DNA of 36,039 nt from a virus (IMGVR_UViG_3300037603_000145:1-36039), one strand, 5' to 3'; numbered from the stretch's first letter, positions 1 to 34,657 are shown. A program made the numbers and translations. Notes: a model not told the origin generated them from the letters alone.

Positions 1-417
1 GAGAGGGATGTGAGTGATGGAAATGGTTTATCGGAAGTGCATGTGATTGATCATGAGGATGGAGGCAATGCTGCAAAGCTGAGATACGGACGCAGAGAGC
101 AGAGGGATGAGCGAACGCGGTTACTGAATAGGAAAGAATGAGAGAGGCGTACAGAAGCCGAGAGGAAGGGAAGGACGGTCGATTTGCGAAGCCGCATGCT
201 CGTGAAAGCGTGAGATCACTGTTTGGGATCAGTATGTGGTAGACGTGGATATAACTCAGATGGAATGCAGACGGACTTGACGCGGAACAAACCCCGTAAA
301 ACGCCGGCTCGAACCCGTTTCGATTCGTTTGCCTTTTTGTCCGCTCTAACACTACGTGTCTTAGTTAATAGGGTAGCGCTAGAACGGAATTCAGATGAGC
401 GTTGAATCGGGGCTCGA

Positions 418-439
418 ATTCGGCGAGTGCTCGCCGAAT
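418..439. repeat. 22-bp palindrome ATTCGGCGAG-TG-CTCGCCGAAT (copy 1 of 3)
   Basis: Perfect 10-bp arms; recurs at 3299-3320 and 4753-4774. Confidence 0.9.
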
Positions 440-444
440 GGAAA

Positions 445-1602
445 TCACCGCCCGTTGGCGTCTTGAATGATGGGCTTGCTTATCGCCCATCCCCTTTCAA
501 GATCGAACTCCGCGTAGAACTGAATGTTGTCTGGATTCATAGGCGGATCGCATGGCAATTGCCCGCGAATTGTTTGCTCCATTCCAAACCGACGGTGGAG
601 CCGACTTGGTTTGATGCCCATCATGTCGCACATCTGACGGGCTTCGGCGATGCCTTCGGCTGACCATTTCCGTTTGAAAGGACGACTCATGTAATTGAAT
701 GCCTTCATTGCCAACTCGGATGGTCTGTCATTCTCGTCTTCGTCGAGCATCCACGGGTTAAACGTTCCCCACCGAACGCCCTTTAGCTCGTCCGGCACTT
801 GCGAATCTCTGAAGATCCTGTTCTTCGTCATGTGCCTGATCTCGGGTTCATCTCGCTTCGCCGTGTACGACATATTAAGCTGCAGCTTTGCCTTGTCGTA
901 CAGCTCACTGATCTTCGCACGCAACCGTCGAGGTCCGTGTTCTTGCGTGGTAACGATGCCAAGGTGCAGGTGAGCGTGGGCGTAGCCGTCGTTGGACTCG
1001 GAGCATGGAACGAGGTGGATGGACCCGACGGTAGGACCGAGCAGATACCTTAGTTTCTTGTTCCTTTCCCGGAAGTCCTGCTTCTTCCCCCTCGCAAGCC
1101 ACGCGGTGTTGTGTTTAGCGTGCCACTCTTTCAAAAGACCGAGGAAATGAGTGAGCAGTTTCGTCTGTTCAGGGAAGGCTTCGGTACCAGCGACAGGTAT
1201 GCTGAATGACTCGGGCATGATTACAAAGCTATGCAGTCGGAGACTGCTTCGATTGCTGGCATCTGAGAAACGGAAGCTAGCAGCCATCAACTGCTGTGCC
1301 CGTTTGTTCGCCAGGATCGACGCACAGCGGGAACAGGAGTAGGGCTTCTGGCAGTAGTGGTTGAACAAGGTTAGATCCTTTGGGGTCCGAGCCCTGCGGT
1401 GAGTACCGCAGCCAAGCAAAGCAAGGCCTTCATCGTGACGGTCAGTTTGACTGTATAGACGGGCGACTTGAATGTTGCGAGCAAGCTGGCGGTTGTTCGA
1501 ATTGAGCTTCTCCCAGACCTTTGGATATTGCCGTGCAAATCTTTCTGTAACTTCGCGATATTTCACTCCCGCGACCGTTGAATCTGGTTTGATTTTGGAC
1601 AT
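445..1602 (-). CDS. HUH-superfamily rolling-circle replication initiator (Rep_1/pC194-like)
   Basis: 385 aa; N-terminal Cys cluster (CGT...CQKPYSCSRC), HUH motif YAHAHLHLGIV, candidate catalytic Tyr in AFNYMSRP; ends at a TGA where the paralog has TGG. Confidence 0.65.
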   Translation of the reverse strand: MSKIKPDSTVAGVKYREVTERFARQYPKVWEKLNSNNRQLARNIQVARLYSQTDRHDEGLALLGCGTHRRARTPKDLTLFNHYCQKPYSCSRCASILANKRAQQLMAASFRFSDASNRSSLRLHSFVIMPESFSIPVAGTEAFPEQTKLLTHFLGLLKEWHAKHNTAWLARGKKQDFRERNKKLRYLLGPTVGSIHLVPCSESNDGYAHAHLHLGIVTTQEHGPRRLRAKISELYDKAKLQLNMSYTAKRDEPEIRHMTKNRIFRDSQVPDELKGVRWGTFNPWMLDEDENDRPSELAMKAFNYMSRPFKRKWSAEGIAEARQMCDMMGIKPSRLHRRFGMEQTIRGQLPCDPPMNPDNIQFYAEFDLERGWAISKPIIQDANGR

Positions 1603-3073: not shown

Positions 3074-3241
3074 CCACCTAAAAGATCTCGGTGTCTATGG
3101 GACGAATGGCGATGGGCTGGAGAAAACGCAAACGAAACCCGGACGGGTCGAAGGCGTGCAAAAACCAGTAGAACGCCGCCTTGAGCCCGTCTGAGGCGTG
3201 TGTGTTTCTTTCTCCTTTACACATACGTGTCTATACGTGTC

Positions 3242-4190
3242 TTAGTTAAGTGGTTGAAGCCGCAACGGAATGCAGATGAGCATTGGATTGGGTTTCGGAT
3301 TCGGCGAGTGCTCGCCGAATGGAACCCACTTCCCGTTAGAGTTTTGGGCAACCGGCTTGCAGATAGCCCATCCATTCTCAGCATTGAAGTCCGCATGGAA
3401 CTGAACGTGGTCAAGGCTCATTGGCGGGTCGCACGGTAGCTGTTTGAAAATCGTGTCCTCCATGCCAAAGCGACGACGAAGACTGTGCGGCTCGATTCCT
3501 ATCATGTCGCACATCTGGCGAGCTTCGGCGATTCCTTTCTGCCGCCCAATGATGTATGAACGGGCGACTCGAGTAGTAGAACGCCTGCAAGGTAAGTACA
3601 GCTGCTGGGTCGTTCTCGTCGATGGCGTCTGGCCTGAACAAACCCCATCTCACACACGCCAACTCTTCTGGCACCTTGCCGTCTCGAAAGATCCTACGCC
3701 GTGTCATTCAAGTAATCTCTGGATCTGTTCCTTTCACCACGTAAGTCATTCCGAGCTGCTGCTTTGCTCTGTCGTACAGCATCTGGATTCTGTCGTGCAG
3801 ACGACGCGTGCCGTGTTTGAGCTTCGTGACGAGTTCCAGATGCAAATGGGTGTGAGCGTACCCGTCTTTGGGTTCGCTGTAGGGTACGAGGTGAATGGAT
3901 CCGACAGTGGGCCCAAGCAATTCCTTCCGCTTCTTTTTCCTCTCGCGTAATCCCTGCTTTTTGCCCGTAGCAAACAACGTGGTATTGTGCTTCGTGTGCC
4001 AATTTTTCAGCTGATCCAAGAACCGCGTCAGGAGTCTCGTCTGCTCTGGGAAAGCGTCTGCACCAGCGATGCCCATGCTGAAAGACTCAGGCTTGATTAC
4101 GAATCTGACTCAGCCAAGAGCAATGTTGCGGCGCAAACAGAAACTGAATTTGGGGGCTCGAGTCAGTCAAGAATGCAACGCGAATGGCAA
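3242..4190 (-). pseudogene. Degenerate second copy of the HUH Rep gene
   Basis: Fragments 3708-4076 (LLGPTVGSIHLVP...GYAHTHLHL), 3411-3707 (AFYYSSRPF) and 3242-3514 (QLPCDPPM) align with 445-1602; frameshifts; N-terminus lost. Confidence 0.9.
3299..3320. repeat. 22-bp palindrome copy 2
   Basis: Identical to 418-439. Confidence 0.9.
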
Positions 4191-4420: not shown

Positions 4421-4819
4421 ATGAATCAAGACAACAAAAACCGGGGACTCAAAGCTAACTTTGCCGATCTCATGAGATTGCTCGCGGATGCTTTGATCCA
4501 ATTCAAAGACGTGCCGCCGCTTTTGCAGAAACGCGTTCATGCTTCGACTGCGTGGCGATGGACTAATCGAGGCGCAAACGGAATCAAGCTCGAAACCGTA
4601 GGTGTCGAAGGCAAACGCTTAACGAGTGTTCAGGCCGTCACGAGGTTCCTGAAGCGGACCTCAACACGGTGTACGCGGTGTGCAGAATACTTTCGCATTC
4701 AACTGAGACCACGAACGAACCCCGCACAATCGATCGTCTTGCAACATTCACTATTCGGCGAGGACTCGCCGAATTGCTGGGGCGCACTGGTCCCGTTGAG
4801 CGAGATCGAATCGGTTTAA
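4421..4819 (+). CDS. DUF1580-like HTH DNA-binding protein (excisionase-like); C-terminal extension may be spurious
   Basis: VHASTAWRWTNRGANGIKLETV...RLTSVQAVTRFL; paralog of 7192-7428; GGAGAG RBS. Confidence 0.75.
   Translation: MNQDNKNRGLKANFADLMRLLADALIQFKDVPPLLQKRVHASTAWRWTNRGANGIKLETVGVEGKRLTSVQAVTRFLKRTSTRCTRCAEYFRIQLRPRTNPAQSIVLQHSLFGEDSPNCWGALVPLSEIESV
4753..4774. repeat. 22-bp palindrome copy 3 (ATTCGGCGAG-GA-CTCGCCGAAT)
   Basis: Same arms as 418-439, in unrelated flanks. Confidence 0.85.
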
Positions 4820-5631: not shown

Positions 5632-7035
5632 ATGGCTAGCCTGGAGCACGTTGCACGAGACGGACGAAATCACTATCGACTGCGATTGTCGCTGGACAAG
5701 AAACGGATTCGCATCGGCTTGGGTGAGTTCAATGAAGAGCAAGCCGACGAAGCTAAGGAGCACATCGAACACCTGATTGGGCAGTATCGACGTGGACGCC
5801 CCCCTGCACCATCAACGGCTGAGTGGCTGGATCGCCTACCGCTGGAGATCCATGATCGCATCGCGTCGTATGGACTGGCCGAGGCTCGCCAACGCGCAGA
5901 ACTCCCGCGAACTGTGTTGGCGTTCATGCGTGCCTACATCAAAAGCCGAACGGACTGGAAAAAGCCGGAGAACTATCGGCAGGCCGTAGATCATCTTGAG
6001 GCTTACCTGGGAAAAGATGCTCCGCTTAGCAGTTTGGCAAAGGGAGATGTTGAGCGGTGGCAACGGTGGATGATTAATGAAGCAAAAGGTCCGAAGTTGT
6101 CACCGAACACTGCGGGGCAGAACGTGAAGCGTTGCCGTCAGATGATGCGACAGGCAGTTGACGACAACCTGATCGAATCAAACCCGTTCGTTGGGGTGAA
6201 GATTGATCTGCGAAGCGACACGAGCAAGAACCGGTTCATTTCAGCAGATCAAGCAACCGCGATCATGGAAGCTTGTCCTGATCAGGAGTGGCGAGTGATA
6301 TTTGGTCTTTGCCGCTATGCAGGACTGCGTTGCCCGAGCGAAGTGCTGCGGTTGCGGTGGTCGGACATTCACTGGGACCGGGGGCGATTCAAAGTCACCG
6401 CGCCGAAGACGGAGCGATACGGGAAGGGAACGCGGATTGTGCCGCTGTTCCGTGAAGTCAGGACAGAGTTGGATGCTCTGTTCTCAATTGTGGGGCCTGG
6501 GCTGGAATGTGCCGCTGATTCCTATGTCATCCAGCGATACAGATGCAGTGAAGCAAACTTGAGGACGACGTACAACAAAATCGTGGAACGGGCTGGAATT
6601 GCGGTTTACCCGAAACCGTTCATGGCACTGCGTGCCAGCAGGCGAACAGAGCTTGAGCGATCGGGCAAGCACAAAAACTACGTTCTCAACGATTGGTTTG
6701 GGCACTCGGGAGCCATCGCAGAAACCCACTACCTCAGCGTCACCGAGGATGACTTCCTCGATGCCCTCGCGGATGAACCAGCATCTAATCGGCCCTCAAC
6801 AGATTTGGAGGGCACACAGGAGGGCACCTCTGTAGATAGTGCCGGGTCATCAGCAGATCAGGAGCAACCGAAGAAAGCCAACGATTGCGAGCCTGAGATG
6901 GCTGGAGAGGCCTTGGGAAAAGCCAATCAATACATCCGGAGGGATTCGAACCCCCAACCCTCGGTTCCGAAGGAGCAGTGCCTCGCAGGACGAATGCTTA
7001 TGAAAGCCCCGTTTGTTCTGCACCTAAGTAAATAG
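5632..7035 (+). CDS. int: Tyrosine recombinase/integrase (left element)
   Basis: AGLRCPSEV, PKT, ALRASR, WFGHS, THY motifs; GAGG RBS; 3' end crosses the att scar. Confidence 0.92.
   Translation: MASLEHVARDGRNHYRLRLSLDKKRIRIGLGEFNEEQADEAKEHIEHLIGQYRRGRPPAPSTAEWLDRLPLEIHDRIASYGLAEARQRAELPRTVLAFMRAYIKSRTDWKKPENYRQAVDHLEAYLGKDAPLSSLAKGDVERWQRWMINEAKGPKLSPNTAGQNVKRCRQMMRQAVDDNLIESNPFVGVKIDLRSDTSKNRFISADQATAIMEACPDQEWRVIFGLCRYAGLRCPSEVLRLRWSDIHWDRGRFKVTAPKTERYGKGTRIVPLFREVRTELDALFSIVGPGLECAADSYVIQRYRCSEANLRTTYNKIVERAGIAVYPKPFMALRASRRTELERSGKHKNYVLNDWFGHSGAIAETHYLSVTEDDFLDALADEPASNRPSTDLEGTQEGTSVDSAGSSADQEQPKKANDCEPEMAGEALGKANQYIRRDSNPQPSVPKEQCLAGRMLMKAPFVLHLSK
6931..6972 (-). other. att site: 3' half of tRNA-Arg(UCG), not an intact tRNA
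   Basis: Minus strand CTTCGGA-ACCGAGGGTT-GGGGGTTCGAATCCCTC-CGGATGTA = anticodon loop, T arm and acceptor strand; 5' anticodon stem and D arm absent. Confidence 0.85.
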
Positions 7036-8687: not shown

Positions 8688-8905
8688 CTCTGGCTCCTAC
8701 CACAGGCACCTCGGATTTATGCAGTGCCGTTTCGTGTGAAAATAGAAACCGCTCGATTGTAGGGCATTTATTGATTGAGCAACCACCCTGCGAAGATGTG
8801 ATACATAATGAAAGCCACTGTGCGTCGTGGCATGGTGGTGAACGTTGCGGCGAGGACCACCCACGCCTGACCGCTAAGCACGTGAGCGGGAGTCATTGGG
8901 CTTGA

Positions 8906-8969
8906 TCACGTAGCGGCGTCTCTCCGAGACGCTGTCATTCGCAAGTCTCAGAGAGACTCGCCTACGTGA
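8906..8969. repeat. GTAG-type REP doublet (REPIN-like)
   Basis: TCACGTAG.GCGTCTCTCCGAGACGC and inverted partner GTCTCAGAGAGACTCGCCTACGTGA. Confidence 0.65.
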
Positions 8970-9048
8970 GGTTCTACCCGATCATTCCTGCCGACCTGCT
9001 TAGTGATGGCACCCGTTGCCATCGGCGGTCAGGATTTCACCAGGCTAG

Positions 9049-9408
9049 CTAGCCGTCAATCGCAGCCAACCGATGCTCTGTCATTGCGGCAATCACGTCG
9101 CAATCGACGGAACCGGACTGCGACCAATGCCAGTCTCCATCGATTAGGTCGGCGACGCCAACACGCGCAAGGTACTCAAGATCGGCAAGCGTGGTTCGCA
9201 CGCTAATGAAGCGACCAACGATCTGAGAGGCGTCAGTGGCCATCTCTCGCGGTGTCTGGCCAACAGGGGAAAGCATCAGCAGCTTGGCCGTAACAAGCAC
9301 ACGATCGAATTCAGCGACGTTGTGGGCTTGGTGCTTGGGACGCGACGAAAAAAGGCGACTAAACATAGTGGACTCGCAACAATGAGAAGGGGAAACGGTA
9401 ATGAACAT
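9049..9408 (-). CDS. Small winged-helix-like DNA-binding protein
   Basis: TPREMATDASQIVGRFISVRTTLADLEYLARVGV; start uncertain (9408 with GAGGGAG RBS, or 9366). Confidence 0.5.
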   Translation of the reverse strand: MFITVSPSHCCESTMFSRLFSSRPKHQAHNVAEFDRVLVTAKLLMLSPVGQTPREMATDASQIVGRFISVRTTLADLEYLARVGVADLIDGDWHWSQSGSVDCDVIAAMTEHRLAAIDG

Positions 9409-9578
9409 CAATCTCCCTCGACGACCGGTTGCGACGGTCTTTGCTTCTGTCGTGCGATGAATATTGCAAACCCCGAAAGGCCCGTCAAGCAGATTTTCAC
9501 CGAAAGATTGAAATGGCCACCGGCGCCCCATAACCTACAAGTGCCCTGGGTTTGACATTCCCCGGGGCGGAAACGGGG

Positions 9579-10045: not shown

Positions 10046-10483
10046 TTGCGATGGACATTTGCTAATAAGTGTTCTCGTCGCAATATCACCGACGAAAAGA
10101 TCAAACAGTGTGAGCGTGAAGCGTTGATGCGGCTTGGGCGGCGTTACAACGCTGAAAAGGCCGACAAGAAAGACTCGCTCAAGCGAGGCAGGTCACCGAT
10201 GCCCCAAGCAGGGGCAACGGGGGAATCGACACGGGACAAAATCGCCAAAGAGGAGGGTGTCTCAAAGAACACGGTCGAGCGAGCCGGAGCCCGTATGGAG
10301 ATCCACGACGCAGTCGAGGAAGTGGCTCCCGATGTGGCGGTTGAGGTGCTGGAATGCCCCGCGACGCAGCTCAAAAGGATTGTTTTTGCGGCACCGGCAA
10401 ACTTGAGCCACAAACACAACCTCAGGTTGAGGCTTTTCAAAAACACCGTGTTTTGCGGGGTAGATTTAATAGCCTCAACTTGA
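10046..10483 (+). pseudogene. C-terminal HTH part of a phage ParB-like protein, probably a fragment
   Basis: RRNIT...LGRRYNAEK...TRDKIAKEEGVSKNTVERAG; no good start; 3' end runs into the left inverted repeat. Confidence 0.55.
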
Positions 10484-10519
10484 GGCTATGCGCGCAAATC
10501 AAAAAATGATCGCCAGCGA
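10418..10519 (+). repeat. Left ~100-bp inverted repeat
   Basis: Reverse complement of 13179-13279; exact blocks of 27 bp (10461-10487) and 18 bp (10502-10519); contains palindrome ATAGCCTCAA-C-TTGAGGCTAT. Confidence 0.92.
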
Positions 10520-10545
10520 GAGCCTGAAAAGACGGCCAATTTCCC

Positions 10546-10574
10546 TTGACCTGTTTTGGATCGGGGCCAAAACT
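10546..10574 (+). promoter_or_regulatory. Candidate sigma70 promoter
   Basis: TTGACC-N17-AAAACT just upstream of the structured leader. Confidence 0.4.
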
Positions 10575-10580
10575 GAGAGC

Positions 10581-10763
10581 GTCGTGGCACCAAGCTAGCG
10601 GCTAGACCACCAGGACGGTGGCAAGAAGACAACAGCCCCGTGAGCCAATGCTGCAAAACGTAGACTCACGAGGCTGCCTCCCGATGAGTCGATAATAGAG
10701 CACCAATGTCGGTGGTCAAGGCGCATCGGGATAGACGACTCCGTCCTGACGAATGGCCATGAC
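10581..10763 (+). ncRNA. Predicted multibranch structured RNA
   Basis: Nested pairings GTCGTGGC/GCCATGAC, CAGGACGG/CCGTCCTG, CAGCCCCGTGAG/CTCACGAGGCTG, TCCCGATG/CATCGGGA; no ORF of 60 aa or more here. Confidence 0.5.
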
Positions 10764-10922
10764 AACGACGACATCTACCTATGCGGCAGGACACCAGATC
10801 CTGCCCTCTATCTGCTCGGTCTCTGAGCATGCAACGTCTAAACCTCGCAAATCACGGTGTGAAATAGGCGTGATTCGCAGAACTGGAAATAGGCCCAACA
10901 GCCTGTTTTGATGTCACTACAT

Positions 10923-10959
10923 AAAAAAAGGCGACTCACGAGTGCAAATCGTGGTCGCC
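10923..10959 (-). terminator. Intrinsic terminator of the antisense RNA
   Basis: GGCGACCACGA-loop-TCGTGAGTCGCC-TTTTTTT on the minus strand. Confidence 0.75.
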
Positions 10960-11001
10960 GTAATTTGCTGAGGCAGTGGTAGGCCAGCAAACTGAGAGAA
11001 C
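10923..11001 (-). ncRNA. Predicted ~80-nt antisense (counter-transcript) RNA
   Basis: Minus-strand TATAAT at 11008-11013, hairpin 10964-10991, terminator hairpin 10930-10959 followed by T7. Confidence 0.6.
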
Positions 11002-11057
11002 ACCCGAATTATATCGGGCTCGGTTGCCACCTTCCAGTCCTCAGTTCCCACGAACTG

Positions 11058-12395
11058 ATGAGAACGAAGATGGAAACTGTTGAAGCGAGTGCAACCACAC
11101 TTTCACGCAGCACGCCAGTCGATCATAGCTTCGCGAACAAGGTGTTCGAAGCCGGGCTGTCAGAGTCAGCGGAGAACGAGCTGTTTGACGCCTACGCCCG
11201 TTGCCGCAAAAACGGCTACGTTTCGTGGCATACCGAGGTCCTGCACCATAACCACGGTTCGGCAGTGCGTCGCGAGGTCATTGGCTTCGCGAACAAGAGC
11301 GGCGTTTTTCGAAAATCCAAAAAGTTCCTGCCGGATAGCCACTGCAACGAATACGTTTTCAACGCCAAATTCGACCCTGAAAAGACACCCCCCACATTGT
11401 GTAAAAATCTGGCAACATATAAGACACCCCTGCCTCGTTGCCTCTCTCCTTCGTCCCCTCTTCCTACTCTCCCCTCCTCCCTTCTCTTTCCTCTTCCTTC
11501 TTCCTGGCTCTTTAATCGAAACCGCAATTGGGTTGCGATCTGCAAAAAGAAAAATTGGACAATCCCAGTCGATTACCACGGTGATTCGGTTATTTGCCGA
11601 GCCGTTTTCCAGGCCCTAAATGAGCTGGAGTTACCCGGCGACGCGGTACTGGAGGAGTTGAGTCCGATTCGGAAGCGCGAAGACCGACTCAGCCCCCGCG
11701 AGGTTGGGCGAAACCTGCTGAACAAAGCCCAAAGCGGAAAGGTTGTTCGCAAGCTCAAAATCAAAAACAACACGTGCTACCACTTCGTGTCGAACATGCC
11801 GAGGGTGATGCGGCGAAGCTGCAAGTTCGGTAGCGAAGCGATCGCCGAATCGGACATCCCGAGCAGTTATCTTTGCCATCTTGCCGGTCAAATGTCCGAC
11901 CAGAGTGAAAAGCAGCGGATGGTCAACATGCTCCCTCGAATGTACGAGTGGATCGATGATGTTTGCCCCCGCAAGTTCGATCGCACAGATGAGGGCGACG
12001 AGCAGCAAGCGGAATTCGATGCTTTGCCAATGGATGAACGGCGTGATGCAGTCAAACGTGAGGTTCAGCGTCAGTTGCTATTCGGCATCGACTGGAGGGT
12101 TTGCTCACGCCCAATGTGGAAACCGTTTCGGAAAGAGTTCCCCTTATTCGCCGGGATGATCAACGAAAAGCGAAAACGGTGGGGCAGTGCCAGTGGCTTC
12201 GCGCGTTACCTGATGCGGTTGCAGGGCGACACGATGAGCGCTGCGATGATGGATCTGATTGGGCAGGGGATCACGATGATGCCGTTGTCTGACGGGCTGC
12301 TTGTCCCTGCGTCAAAAATTGAGTTGGCTGGGGTCGCGATCGAGAACGCAGCGGAGGCGGCATTGGGGTTCAGGCCCATGGTTCGGCGGAAGTAG
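11058..12395 (+). CDS. Small family-A-like polymerase (possibly TV-Pol type); probable replication protein
   Basis: 445 aa; motif A-like ESDIPSSY, motif B-like RDAVKREV, motif C-like PLSDGLLV; no exonuclease domain recognised. Confidence 0.55.
   Translation: MRTKMETVEASATTLSRSTPVDHSFANKVFEAGLSESAENELFDAYARCRKNGYVSWHTEVLHHNHGSAVRREVIGFANKSGVFRKSKKFLPDSHCNEYVFNAKFDPEKTPPTLCKNLATYKTPLPRCLSPSSPLPTLPSSLLFPLPSSWLFNRNRNWVAICKKKNWTIPVDYHGDSVICRAVFQALNELELPGDAVLEELSPIRKREDRLSPREVGRNLLNKAQSGKVVRKLKIKNNTCYHFVSNMPRVMRRSCKFGSEAIAESDIPSSYLCHLAGQMSDQSEKQRMVNMLPRMYEWIDDVCPRKFDRTDEGDEQQAEFDALPMDERRDAVKREVQRQLLFGIDWRVCSRPMWKPFRKEFPLFAGMINEKRKRWGSASGFARYLMRLQGDTMSAAMMDLIGQGITMMPLSDGLLVPASKIELAGVAIENAAEAALGFRPMVRRK
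11441..11505 (+). other. Intragenic polypyrimidine tract, candidate origin
   Basis: 63 of 65 nt are C/T; preceded by AAGACACCCC twice (11382, 11421). Confidence 0.5.
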
Positions 12396-12505
12396 CTTGA
12401 TTATGTTTGCGAAGTCCAGATTCAGCAGTTTCAAAATGAAGCTGCTGTCCAGGCGCAAAACAGCCGATGACCTGAGCTGACGTTTAGTAGTCAGCACGCG
12501 GACAC

Positions 12506-12703
12506 GTGATGGCAACCACTCCAGCAAATTTGGTGGAAATGCCCCACTTCAGCCAGCCGCCCTACATCTACGTATTCGCTGCCGTAGTGCTTATCATCGT
12601 CGCTGGGATTAGTTTCCTGGCCGGATTAGATCCCGCAGCCGTTTTTGCCTTCGCCTTTATCACTGTTGGCATCACGATCTTCATCGGCCATGGCGAGAAT
12701 TGA
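12506..12703 (+). CDS. Small two-TM membrane protein
   Basis: YIYVFAAVVLIIVAGISFLAGL and AAVFAFAFITVGITIFIG. Confidence 0.6.
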   Translation: MMATTPANLVEMPHFSQPPYIYVFAAVVLIIVAGISFLAGLDPAAVFAFAFITVGITIFIGHGEN

Positions 12704-12729
12704 CCTTCAAAGCCTGGCTGGCATTTTAA

Positions 12730-13178
12730 GTGTTAGCCAACGTCGGCAGCTGGGCAGACCGAGGGAAATCAGGTTGCAACGGTCACGGCGGAGTCAAACC
12801 TCCCAGCCGCCGACGAATAGCTAACACGCTTCAGGCGACAGATCGACGATACATTCGCTGCTAAACTCATAAAATCCAGAAGCCCGGTAAATGCCGCTCC
12901 GGTGGCCGACTGGTGCCCCAAGTCACGCCACCGGATTGGCATCTGCCCCAATTCTATTATCGACTGAACTCGCCTTTGATCTTAACGAGTGGATACACTC
13001 AAACCGAGCGTTGGCAATGTGACGTGGCGAACACACTCGGCGACCGTGTGCCCCGTGTCGCCGGGTTTGCCCGGTGGAGTCTTGCCCCGACTCCGCCGGG
13101 CTCCTTCTCTTTACGACATATCGCATCGTCGTCACCCGCCTTTGCTGTCTCGTTGCTGACACGAGGTCGAAGGGAGAA
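12730..13178. ncRNA. Hairpin array with repeated TGCCCC loops
   Basis: Stems 12730-12827, 12891-12942, 13036-13065, 13069-13101, 13105-13178; TGCCCC at 12914, 12944, 13049, 13083. Confidence 0.5.
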
Positions 13179-13279
13179 TCGCTGGCGATCATTTTTGGAA
13201 GTTTTGAAAAGCCTCAAGTTGAGGCTATTAAATCTAGTGCGGAAAACACGGGGTTTTTGAAAGTCGAGGCGTTGAGGTT
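13179..13279 (-). repeat. Right ~100-bp inverted repeat
   Basis: Partner of 10418-10519; palindrome AGCCTCAA-G-TTGAGGCT at 13210-13226. Confidence 0.92.
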
Positions 13280-33158: not shown

Positions 33159-33259
33159 TCGACACGCTCCATCCAAAGTTTGCTCACCAGCTGAGCCAAT
33201 CCCTGGCGTTTGAATTTGCTAAAATCCCGAGAACCTTTCTCGAATTGCAAGGGATACGC

Positions 33260-34657
33260 ATGGCAAATAGATGGAATCCGACTGACCTGAACTTCGACAA
33301 CGAACCGCTCAAGCGTAGCGATTTCGCGGATCGACTAGAGAGCTTCCTGACCGTCGATCACATATTTGTGCCGGGAAGCTTGGTGGTCTCACTGGAGGCC
33401 CCGTTTGGCTCAGGAAAATCCGTTTTTCTGTCGATGTGGGCAAAACGGCTGAAACTGAACTATCGACAAGGTTCTGATACCCCCGTTCCGGTACTTCTCA
33501 ATGCATGGGAGGATGATTTTGCTGGGAACCCGTTTCTTTCGCTGATTAGCAACCTGATCAAAGCCGTCGAAGAACTGGATATTGGGGACGATGAGCAAAC
33601 AGCCGACTTGCGTGATGCGGCAGCTAAGGCTGGATGGTATCTGACGGGGGTTGCGAACAGTTTTGTGCGGTCAAAGGTCGGGGTTGATTTTGCATCGGGA
33701 GCAAAACTTGCGGAAGAGAAAACCGAAGATGCAGAAAAACGCAACCGCGCCGATTTGGTAAAAGAATTTGAAGCAATGAAGGCTGCGCTAGAAAGCCTAA
33801 AGAAGCTTCTGAGGTCAATTCTCGGCAGCAATAGCGAAATCAAAGCGATTGTTTGCGTTGATGAACTCGATCGATGCAGACCTGATTACGCAATTGCGTA
33901 TTTGGAGACCATAAAGCACATTTTCGACATTCCCGGAATCGCTTTTGTTCTTGCAATCGACAAAGGTCAGCTAGAAAACTCGGCAAGATGTTTGTTCGGG
34001 CAGGACTTAAAGACTGAAGAATATCTGAGGAAATTTGTCCATCGAAGGATCTATCTACCTCGCCCAAGTCCCGAAGATGTCAAGGATTTCGTTGAGTCCT
34101 GTGTTTCGCGTTTTGTAGTTGTGCCAGGTGTCCGTGACAGTCGCCTTTCAGCAAGTGAGTTGCACGCGAGTATCACGAAAATTTGCATCGGTTTCGGGTT
34201 GTCTCTAAGGCAGATCGAATCTGTTTTCCGCACCCTCGGGCATCTTTTCTACACCGAAACATCAAGAGGTGAACTTTTCCCAGCTTTCAACTATGCCAGT
34301 ATGTTTCTTGTTTGCTTGCAAGCTTACGACTCAAAGACTTACGAAGCCTTTCGAAATCGCGATCTGACCGTAGCAGAACTGTTCAAAAAGTTGTTGCCTG
34401 TTTTAGGATGGAACAGCGCAGAGATGTATGTTGGAACGTGCTACTATGGCCAACCGGAACATATGATTTTGGACGGATTCCGCGAGTATCTAAAGCAGAA
34501 TGATCTTCTGGATGACACCGGCAGTTCGAACGATGAACAGCGTGCTAGAAGACGCGAACGGCTGGAATCGAATCTCGCGTCGAGTTGGGGAGACTTTGGG
34601 GAAGAGCCACTGGAACGCGTTTTCAAGAATATTGAAACAGCATCCACTTTTCCCTAG
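33260..34657 (+). CDS. KAP-family P-loop NTPase
   Basis: EAPFGSGKS, NAWEDDF, VCVDELDRCRPDYAI..LETIKH, YLRKF. Confidence 0.92.
   Translation: MANRWNPTDLNFDNEPLKRSDFADRLESFLTVDHIFVPGSLVVSLEAPFGSGKSVFLSMWAKRLKLNYRQGSDTPVPVLLNAWEDDFAGNPFLSLISNLIKAVEELDIGDDEQTADLRDAAAKAGWYLTGVANSFVRSKVGVDFASGAKLAEEKTEDAEKRNRADLVKEFEAMKAALESLKKLLRSILGSNSEIKAIVCVDELDRCRPDYAIAYLETIKHIFDIPGIAFVLAIDKGQLENSARCLFGQDLKTEEYLRKFVHRRIYLPRPSPEDVKDFVESCVSRFVVVPGVRDSRLSASELHASITKICIGFGLSLRQIESVFRTLGHLFYTETSRGELFPAFNYASMFLVCLQAYDSKTYEAFRNRDLTVAELFKKLLPVLGWNSAEMYVGTCYYGQPEHMILDGFREYLKQNDLLDDTGSSNDEQRARRRERLESNLASSWGDFGEEPLERVFKNIETASTFP

What the first reader, a model, noticed from the sequence alone, without database searches (positions are those of the whole stretch)
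10418..13279. Inverted-repeat-bounded cassette: minimal family-A-like polymerase with structured RNAs, a candidate new replication module
Seen: ~100-bp inverted repeats enclose a 540-bp structured leader, a 445-aa ORF, a small membrane protein and a 450-bp hairpin array. I recognise no other replication gene (DnaB/C loader, O/P, primase, helicase) in the prophage. Known: family A DNA polymerases and T7-like RNA polymerases share motifs A (Asp), B (RxxxK) and C (HD); small element-encoded relatives have been called TV-Pols. Inference: the ORF (SDIPSSY / RDAVK / LSDG) is a primase-like initiator and the cassette is a self-contained, RNA-regulated replicon.
Basis: partly seen in the sequence, partly recalled or inferred. 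Interest (0 to 1): 0.85.

Follow-up and report, generated by a model that had tools for sequence, protein, structure and literature searches.

The report
Winged-helix mini-polymerase, likely prophage initiator
This phage gene is predicted to encode a stripped-down relative of DNA polymerase I and T7 RNA polymerase with a DNA-docking head, a named but untested family that likely starts the phage's replication; the flanking repeats and folded RNAs are real but do not travel with the enzyme as one fixed cassette.

Summary
Observation confirmed. The inverted repeat (E 1e-18), the structured leader and trailer (z -3.8, -6.6) and the pyrimidine tract are real. The 445-aa protein models at pLDDT 91 as a winged helix joined to a PolA/T7-RNAP core, and both catalytic Asp are kept. 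It is a distant relative of divPolA2 (Yutin 2024, untested). This scan has reported the family before on other DNA. Homologs sit in Planctomycete genomes, often beside a tyrosine integrase (14 of 23 loci), never beside a primase or replicative helicase. The ICP1 homolog lies at 59.0-60.6 kb, where that phage's theta origin was mapped. Best reading: origin-binding primase-initiator (about 0.5). The 'self-contained cassette' is only partly supported. The repeat flanks 1 of 23 homolog loci, in direct orientation. It also occurs once without the polymerase, and it tracks a small upstream gene instead. The trailer is shared with other contigs independently. This copy has lost three near-invariant active-site residues (R239T, E389Q, H411S), so its activity may be altered or reduced.

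The parts
10418..10519 (+). Left arm: three palindromes (10418-10434, 10440-10454, 10471-10487) plus a conserved non-palindromic 3' block; member of a ~100-bp site family
10546..10574 (+). Weak sigma-70-like promoter read by eye (TTGACC-17-AAAACT), kept at the same place in L108; below the scanner's threshold
   Evidence: not listed
10520..11069 (+). Structured leader, probably a 5' UTR; no Rfam match
10924..10960 (-). Intrinsic terminator on the antisense strand about 130 nt before the ORF; candidate end of a counter-transcribed control RNA (inferred)
11058..12395 (+). Winged-helix plus minimal PolA/T7-RNAP-fold protein (divPolA2-like); likely start at 11070
11097..11381 (+). N-terminal domain predicted as a winged helix (residues 14-108)
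11441..11500 (+). Pyrimidine tract at the end of the low-confidence linker (residues 109-137); candidate origin or priming template (inferred)
12506..12703 (+). 65-aa hydrophobic ORF; no family match, no homolog in the loci held
12714..13113 (+). Conserved structured trailer ending in an intrinsic terminator (13069-13101); 12787-12795 is complementary to the terminator's 3' arm 13089-13097, a possible switch (inferred)
   Evidence: sequence
13179..13279 (-). Right arm: inverted copy of the same site; lacks the promoter-like stretch that follows the left arm
9049..9531 (-). Small unannotated protein (helix-turn-helix-like by eye only) found in exactly the three loci that carry the site family; candidate binder of the arms
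10046..10483 (+). ParB-like fragment running into the left arm; same order in L108

Best explanation
The ORF is predicted to be a winged-helix domain joined to a minimal family-A polymerase core, and it likely acts as this prophage's replication initiator: it would bind a local origin with the winged helix and lay down or extend the first primer for host replication proteins. Shown: the conserved motifs, the absence of other replication genes, and the family's link to integrated elements. Predicted: the fold and the winged helix. Inferred: origin binding, priming, use of host helicase and polymerase, and control of the gene by the folded leader and an antisense RNA ending at 10924-10960. The ~100-bp arms are a multi-palindrome protein-binding site of the element backbone, most likely operator or origin type, duplicated in inverted orientation here. 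They are not ends that define a polymerase cassette. The trailer is a separate conserved RNA with a terminator, which likely gates read-through towards the downstream genes.
For: Fold: AF2 pLDDT 91.3, pTM 0.87. The top Foldseek PDB hits listed are all family A polymerases. VIA Z 14.7 for yeast mtRNAP (rmsd 4.4, 262 aligned) and Z 13.9 for Pol theta (rmsd 4.0, 254 aligned). Conservation in 94 sequences: D266 94/94, D412 93/94, K333 93/94. N-terminal domain: top matches are mostly winged-helix domains (ORC Z 6.1, CodY Z 5.9) and HTH_36/DnaD_N clusters at TM about 0.6. Context: 14 of 23 homolog loci have a tyrosine-integrase-family ORF among the neighbours scanned, and no DnaG, AEP, DnaB or D5 gene appeared among 149 neighbours. 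13 of 20 loci hold a tRNA. 4 of 23 show att-like direct repeats enclosing 6-11.5 kb. In the window the gene sits between the integrase/regulatory block and the HNH-terminase block. The ICP1 homolog (linked through) lies at 58,951-60,618 of ICP1_2006_E, and Barth et al. place the theta origin of that strain near 60 kb (PMC7145576 passages). Upstream 200 nt fold at z <= -2.3 in 7 of 14 homologs, against 1 of 14 inside the gene. An antisense terminator lies upstream in 7 of 28 loci (window included) against 15 of 189 control ORFs, p 0.012.
Against: No activity data exist for this protein or, in the searches I ran, for its family. This copy and its 89% relative differ from the family at R239 (92/94), E389 (92/94) and H411 (89/94); the equivalent residues contact the primer-template in Pol I (recalled). 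The best structural hit is an RNA polymerase, tied within 1 Z with a DNA polymerase, and Yutin et al. favour repair or RNA polymerase roles. ICP1 has its own PolA and helicase-primase. Its origin peak is broad, read from 1-kb bins, near mid-genome, and from a CRISPR-deletion strain whose reference was not stated in the passages seen. The pyrimidine tract is kept in only 1 of 23 homolog loci. The winged-helix Z-scores (5-6) are modest and show no function. The folding and terminator controls were not matched for intergenic DNA, and start offsets were set by hand.
Confidence: 0.5

Rival explanations
1. The protein is a small promoter-specific RNA polymerase. The winged helix recognises a local site and the enzyme makes the structured leader or trailer RNA, or phage transcripts.
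For: Top VIA hit is yeast mtRNAP, and T7 and N4 RNAPs are in the top 15. Yutin et al. raise this for divPolA2. Structured RNAs flank the gene.
Against: Homologs sit in small elements with few genes to transcribe. The trailer and arms do not follow the gene. Foldseek's listed hits are DNA polymerases.
Confidence: 0.17
2. This lineage's copy is catalytically weak or dead and works only as an origin-binding or regulatory protein, or is decaying.
For: Three near-invariant residues are replaced together. The upstream ParB-like gene looks like a fragment.
Against: Both Asp and the motif B Lys are kept. The frame is intact, and a relative at 89% identity shares the three changes.
Confidence: 0.15
3. 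The arms are site-specific recombination sites, and the polymerase segment is an invertible (here) or excisable (L044) module. This concerns the arms and can hold together with the best explanation.
For: Two copies bracket the polymerase gene in two distant elements, inverted here and direct in L044, and they are the only copies in that 8.5-Mb genome. Three palindromes in about 100 bp recall resolvase sites (recalled).
Against: No strand-switch joint appeared in four runs, and X1 contigs cross both arms unbroken (contigs drop rare variants). There is no resolvase in the window. One lone copy exists in L108, and 22 of 23 homolog loci lack the full site.
Confidence: 0.2
4. A retron-like defence system made of a polymerase, a non-coding RNA and a membrane effector.
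For: Three-part layout in the window. Some homolog loci carry Abi or restriction genes nearby.
Against: No PADLOC match for the polymerase or membrane protein. Neither the membrane protein nor the trailer accompanies homologs. The family is also common in lytic phages.
Confidence: 0.05

Closest known systems
divPolA2 (Yutin et al. 2024, Virol J 21:200, PMC11348598; section 13 and passages read)
   Same: About 430-450 aa, palm with catalytic Asp, no exonuclease, N-terminal globular domain, mtRNAP among top structural hits. Profile match to Barba18A gp034: probability 93.5, E 2.2e-7. Foldseek match to a Barba31A protein: E 1.8e-7.
   Different: The published members sit beside a regular replicative polymerase in lytic phages; here it is the only replication-type gene found in a temperate phage. 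The N-terminal domain, unassigned in the paper, models as a winged helix here. The sequence match covers only residues 233-437. Three near-invariant residues are changed.
TV-Pol (Iyer, Abhiman, Aravind 2008, PMC2579912; parts 1-2 of 3 read)
   Same: Minimal PolA core in mobile elements, integrase neighbourhoods, proposed primase-polymerase.
   Different: No D5 helicase or resolvase. The beta-hairpin Arg is lost in this copy. The RxxxK Arg is present in only 39 of 94 family members.
CcPol-MP PolA-SSB primases (Rice 2022, 10.1101/2022.12.02.518924; part 1 of 4 read)
   Same: The precedent that a family A core can prime DNA synthesis de novo.
   Different: It needs a separate OB-fold partner and a helicase; neither was found here, and a fused winged helix is predicted instead.

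Membership tests
PolA / T7-RNAP superfamily | Palm and fingers fold with motif A Asp, motif B Lys and motif C Asp | tested here: met
   (predicted model)
divPolA2 | Detectable homology to the barbavirus protein | tested here: met
   hhalign 93.5, E 2.2e-7 over residues 233-437; Foldseek E 1.8e-7. That Barba18A gp034 is the paper's divPolA2 is my inference from size, host group.
divPolA2 | No 3'-5' exonuclease domain | tested here: met
   The model holds only the N-terminal domain, a linker and the polymerase core
divPolA2 | No canonical thumb | tested here: inconclusive
   Helices at 148-225 may be a reduced thumb; not compared separately
divPolA2 | Same N-terminal globular domain | tested here: inconclusive
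   The N-terminal parts do not align by profile; the barbavirus domain was not modelled
divPolA2 | Encoded in addition to a regular replicative DNA polymerase (context as published) | tested here: not met
   No other polymerase among the ORFs scanned; the record may be incomplete
TV-Pol | Conserved beta-hairpin Arg | tested here: not met
   T239 in this copy; Arg in 92 of 94 family members
TV-Pol | D5 helicase fusion or neighbour | tested here: not met
   None in the window or among 149 neighbours
TV-Pol | Integrase, resolvase or transposase neighbourhood | tested here: met
   Integrase-family ORF near 14 of 23 homolog loci and at window 5632-7035
TV-Pol | Match to the published TV-Pol alignment | not tested
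   No TV-Pol profile was built; only a weak structural hit to a Zamilon virus protein, E 5.5e-4
CcPol-MP primase | Adjacent OB-fold partner and helicase | tested here: not met
   The adjacent ORF is a 65-aa hydrophobic protein; no helicase was found
Any of these | Primase, DNA polymerase or RNA polymerase activity | not testable with these tools
   Needs purified protein

The most novel reading that the evidence does not exclude
A one-protein replicon of a new kind. A winged-helix mini-PolA binds its origin and primes without any element-encoded primase or helicase. Its level is set by a folded leader and an antisense RNA, and it sits between paired three-palindrome sites that can invert or excise it. 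The coordinated loss of three primer-contacting residues would mark a shift to primer-free initiation. The same family would be the unidentified initiator at the theta origin of lytic phages such as ICP1.
Probability: 0.2. Interest if true: 0.82.

Novelty: new variant of a known kind. Interest (0 to 1): 0.5.

Why it matters
divPolA2-type enzymes are widespread and have no tested function. A compact temperate phage and small integrated elements in which this is the only replication-type gene make the initiator hypothesis directly testable. The match between the ICP1 homolog and that phage's mapped theta origin extends the hypothesis to well-studied lytic phages; I did not find this link in print (paper searches). 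If true, it would add a new class of replication initiator built from a polymerase. The ~100-bp site family and the ~380-nt trailer RNA matched no Rfam family.

Tried and rejected
No Pfam, PHROGs, NCBIfam, PADLOC or PDB sequence hit for the protein. No meaningful PDB hit for the 94-sequence profile, and no Pfam family shared among its members. No close loci in viral contigs or metagenome contigs, so no near relative with full flanks could be read. Scans of viral contigs for the trailer and for the full arm motif gave 0 matches. The 35 single matches to the 17-bp palindrome carry no family member and are taken as chance. The trailer gave only two short weak matches in 401 genomes. No RNA holder was listed. 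The first repeat search used only 2.5 kb of flank and missed the L044 pair (corrected). L004 (Bradyrhizobium, E 4e-4) was dropped as a weak match. Of 151 neighbour ORFs listed, 149 were scanned; a second family member in L033 and a 1727-aa ORF in L046 were left out. The idea that the arms are a host-wide repeat was rejected: 1 of 151, 2 of 61 and 1 of 5 genomes had a full copy, in overlapping samples. GC skew of the window shows no clear origin signal. No complex prediction was run. Supplements of the papers were not opened; the divPolA2 accession lists there bear on family membership.

Full report
Observation. The window is a 36,039-base virus record with an integrase, terminase, portal and capsid gene. 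The inverted repeat is real: 10435-10519 against 13179-13262, 84% identical over 87 columns, E 1.3e-18, fading out near 10418 and 13279. Each arm is built from palindromes. The 17-bp one occurs three times in the window, only in the arms, against 0.11 expected. The leader folds at z -3.8 and the trailer at z -6.6, while the coding region mostly does not. Rfam has no match. The ORF, the small hydrophobic ORF and the 97% pyrimidine tract are as described.

The protein. Sequence libraries give nothing, but a full profile search finds 345 relatives at E <= 0.001. The named close ones are from Rubripirellula, Rhodopirellula and other Planctomycetes. With 94 sequences AF2 gives pLDDT 91.3 and pTM 0.87, with one low-confidence linker at 109-137. 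The Foldseek hits listed are family A DNA polymerases. VIA ranks yeast mitochondrial RNA polymerase (Z 14.7) and Pol theta (Z 13.9) first, tied within 1 Z. Residues 14-108, folded alone, match mostly winged-helix domains at Z 5-6 and HTH_36/DnaD_N clusters at TM about 0.6. D266 is present in 94 of 94 sequences, D412 in 93 and K333 in 93. This copy and its 89% relative, however, carry T239, Q389 and S411 where the family has R (92), E (92) and H (89). In Pol I the equivalent residues touch the primer-template (recalled), so the activity here may be changed or reduced.

Known family. The best viral structure hits are 400-450-aa phage proteins, including one from a barbavirus. Yutin et al. 2024 named such proteins divPolA2 and left the function open between repair and RNA synthesis (PMC11348598 section 13). 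The family profile matches Barba18A gp034 at probability 93.5 and a Vibrio phage K354 protein at 95.8. That protein in turn finds 246 phage records, including 115 Rheinheimera phages and ICP1. I reached this, which showed that the scan has reported the family at least eight times on other DNA with the same initiator idea; those notes are unchecked and are not counted as support. TV-Pol and CcPol-MP are looser relatives; their helicase and OB-fold partners are absent here.

Context. The family was found in 21 of 401 genomes of the family of G003 (Pirellulaceae, name recalled) and in 4 of 401 genomes across the phylum. Among 149 neighbours of 23 loci, integrase-family genes lie near 14 loci and ParB_N domains near 5 (one of them a host-type ParAB pair). 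No primase or replicative helicase appears; the only helicase-type hits are one SNF2-like and one Lhr-like gene. Thirteen of 20 loci hold a tRNA, and four show att-like direct repeats enclosing 6-11.5 kb. In ICP1_2006_E the homolog lies at 58,951-60,618. Barth et al. used that strain and saw the bidirectional origin peak near 60 kb (PMC7145576 passages). This is a coarse coincidence, and ICP1 has its own polymerase and helicase-primase (PMC9040626 passages), but it is the only link to an experiment.

The arms. They belong to a conserved ~100-bp site family. Two copies bracket a distant homolog (13% identity) in L044, in direct orientation 4.25 kb apart, and they are the only copies in that genome. 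A single copy lies in L108, after the same ParB-like gene and before the same weak promoter-like stretch as the left arm. That element has a truncated integrase and no polymerase; the genome's polymerase homolog is 4 Mb away. The other 22 homolog loci lack the full site. A profile of the small protein at 9049-9531 hits exactly the three loci that carry the site, and none of the other 28 searched; eight of those are under 4 kb, and the profile was built from the three. So the site follows the element backbone, not the polymerase. No inversion joint was seen in four runs.

The RNAs. The leader has no sequence match among homologs, but upstream structure is common: z <= -2.3 in 7 of 14 homologs tested (14 of 23 loci, starts set by hand), against 1 of 14 inside the gene and 1 of 14 downstream. 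An antisense terminator lies upstream in 7 of 28 loci, four of them at -115 to -150, against 15 of 189 control ORFs (p 0.012). This recalls antisense control of plasmid rep genes (recalled); the controls are not matched for intergenic DNA. The pyrimidine tract recurs at the linker only in L001. The trailer is conserved in colinear blocks in 35.6-kb and 31.6-kb contigs of other runs, with no listed piece of those contigs on the polymerase or arms (15 rows not shown). It ends in a strong terminator whose 3' arm is also complementary to 12787-12795 (sequence).

Verdict. The enzyme is a divPolA2-like winged-helix mini-polymerase, most likely the replication initiator of this Planctomycete-type prophage (0.5). 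The rivals are RNA polymerase (0.17), a weakened or non-catalytic copy (0.15) and defence (0.05); recombination at the arms (0.2) is a separate question. The idea of one fixed, repeat-bounded cassette is not borne out. New here are the temperate context without another polymerase, the three changed active-site residues, the site family, the trailer RNA and the ICP1 origin coincidence. Seven paper searches found no functional study of the family; the library lacks most subscription papers and no supplements were opened. Novelty: new variant of a known kind; interest 0.5.

Noticed in passing
window 8874-9003: Palindromic ~130-bp element matched by many contigs at very high summed depth, with unlike flanks: a multi-copy, REP-like repeat inserted in the phage.
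   Followed up: no
window 12735-13108: Three colinear blocks shared with a 35,556-bp contig and two with a 31,571-bp contig from other runs; the variant T13075C makes the terminator's 5' arm identical to 12787-12795. Candidate undescribed structured RNA or switch.
   Followed up: partly
window 33245-34657: KAP NTPase matching PADLOC candidate defence system PDC-S20, E 2.5e-72.
   Followed up: no
window 353-1230 and 3234-4106; 418-439, 3299-3320, 4753-4775: Two diverged copies (69%) of a segment near a DDE transposase fragment, and a 22-bp palindrome present three times.
   Followed up: no
L044:1206-2315: Tandem array of about 139-bp units with an internal palindrome next to the element's att-like repeat.
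   Followed up: no
L108:8991-15592: 6.6-kb element at tRNA-His sharing four genes and the arm motif with the window, with a truncated integrase and no polymerase; possibly a deleted relative.
   Followed up: partly
L033:7175-8638 and 11333-12721: Two family members in tandem, separated by a ParB-domain gene.
   Followed up: no
L037:9122-10821: Family member split into two overlapping frames.
   Followed up: no
window 12478-12524: 47-bp hairpin stretch also found in an unrelated contig context; the X1 assembly has a gap at 12497-12586.
   Followed up: no
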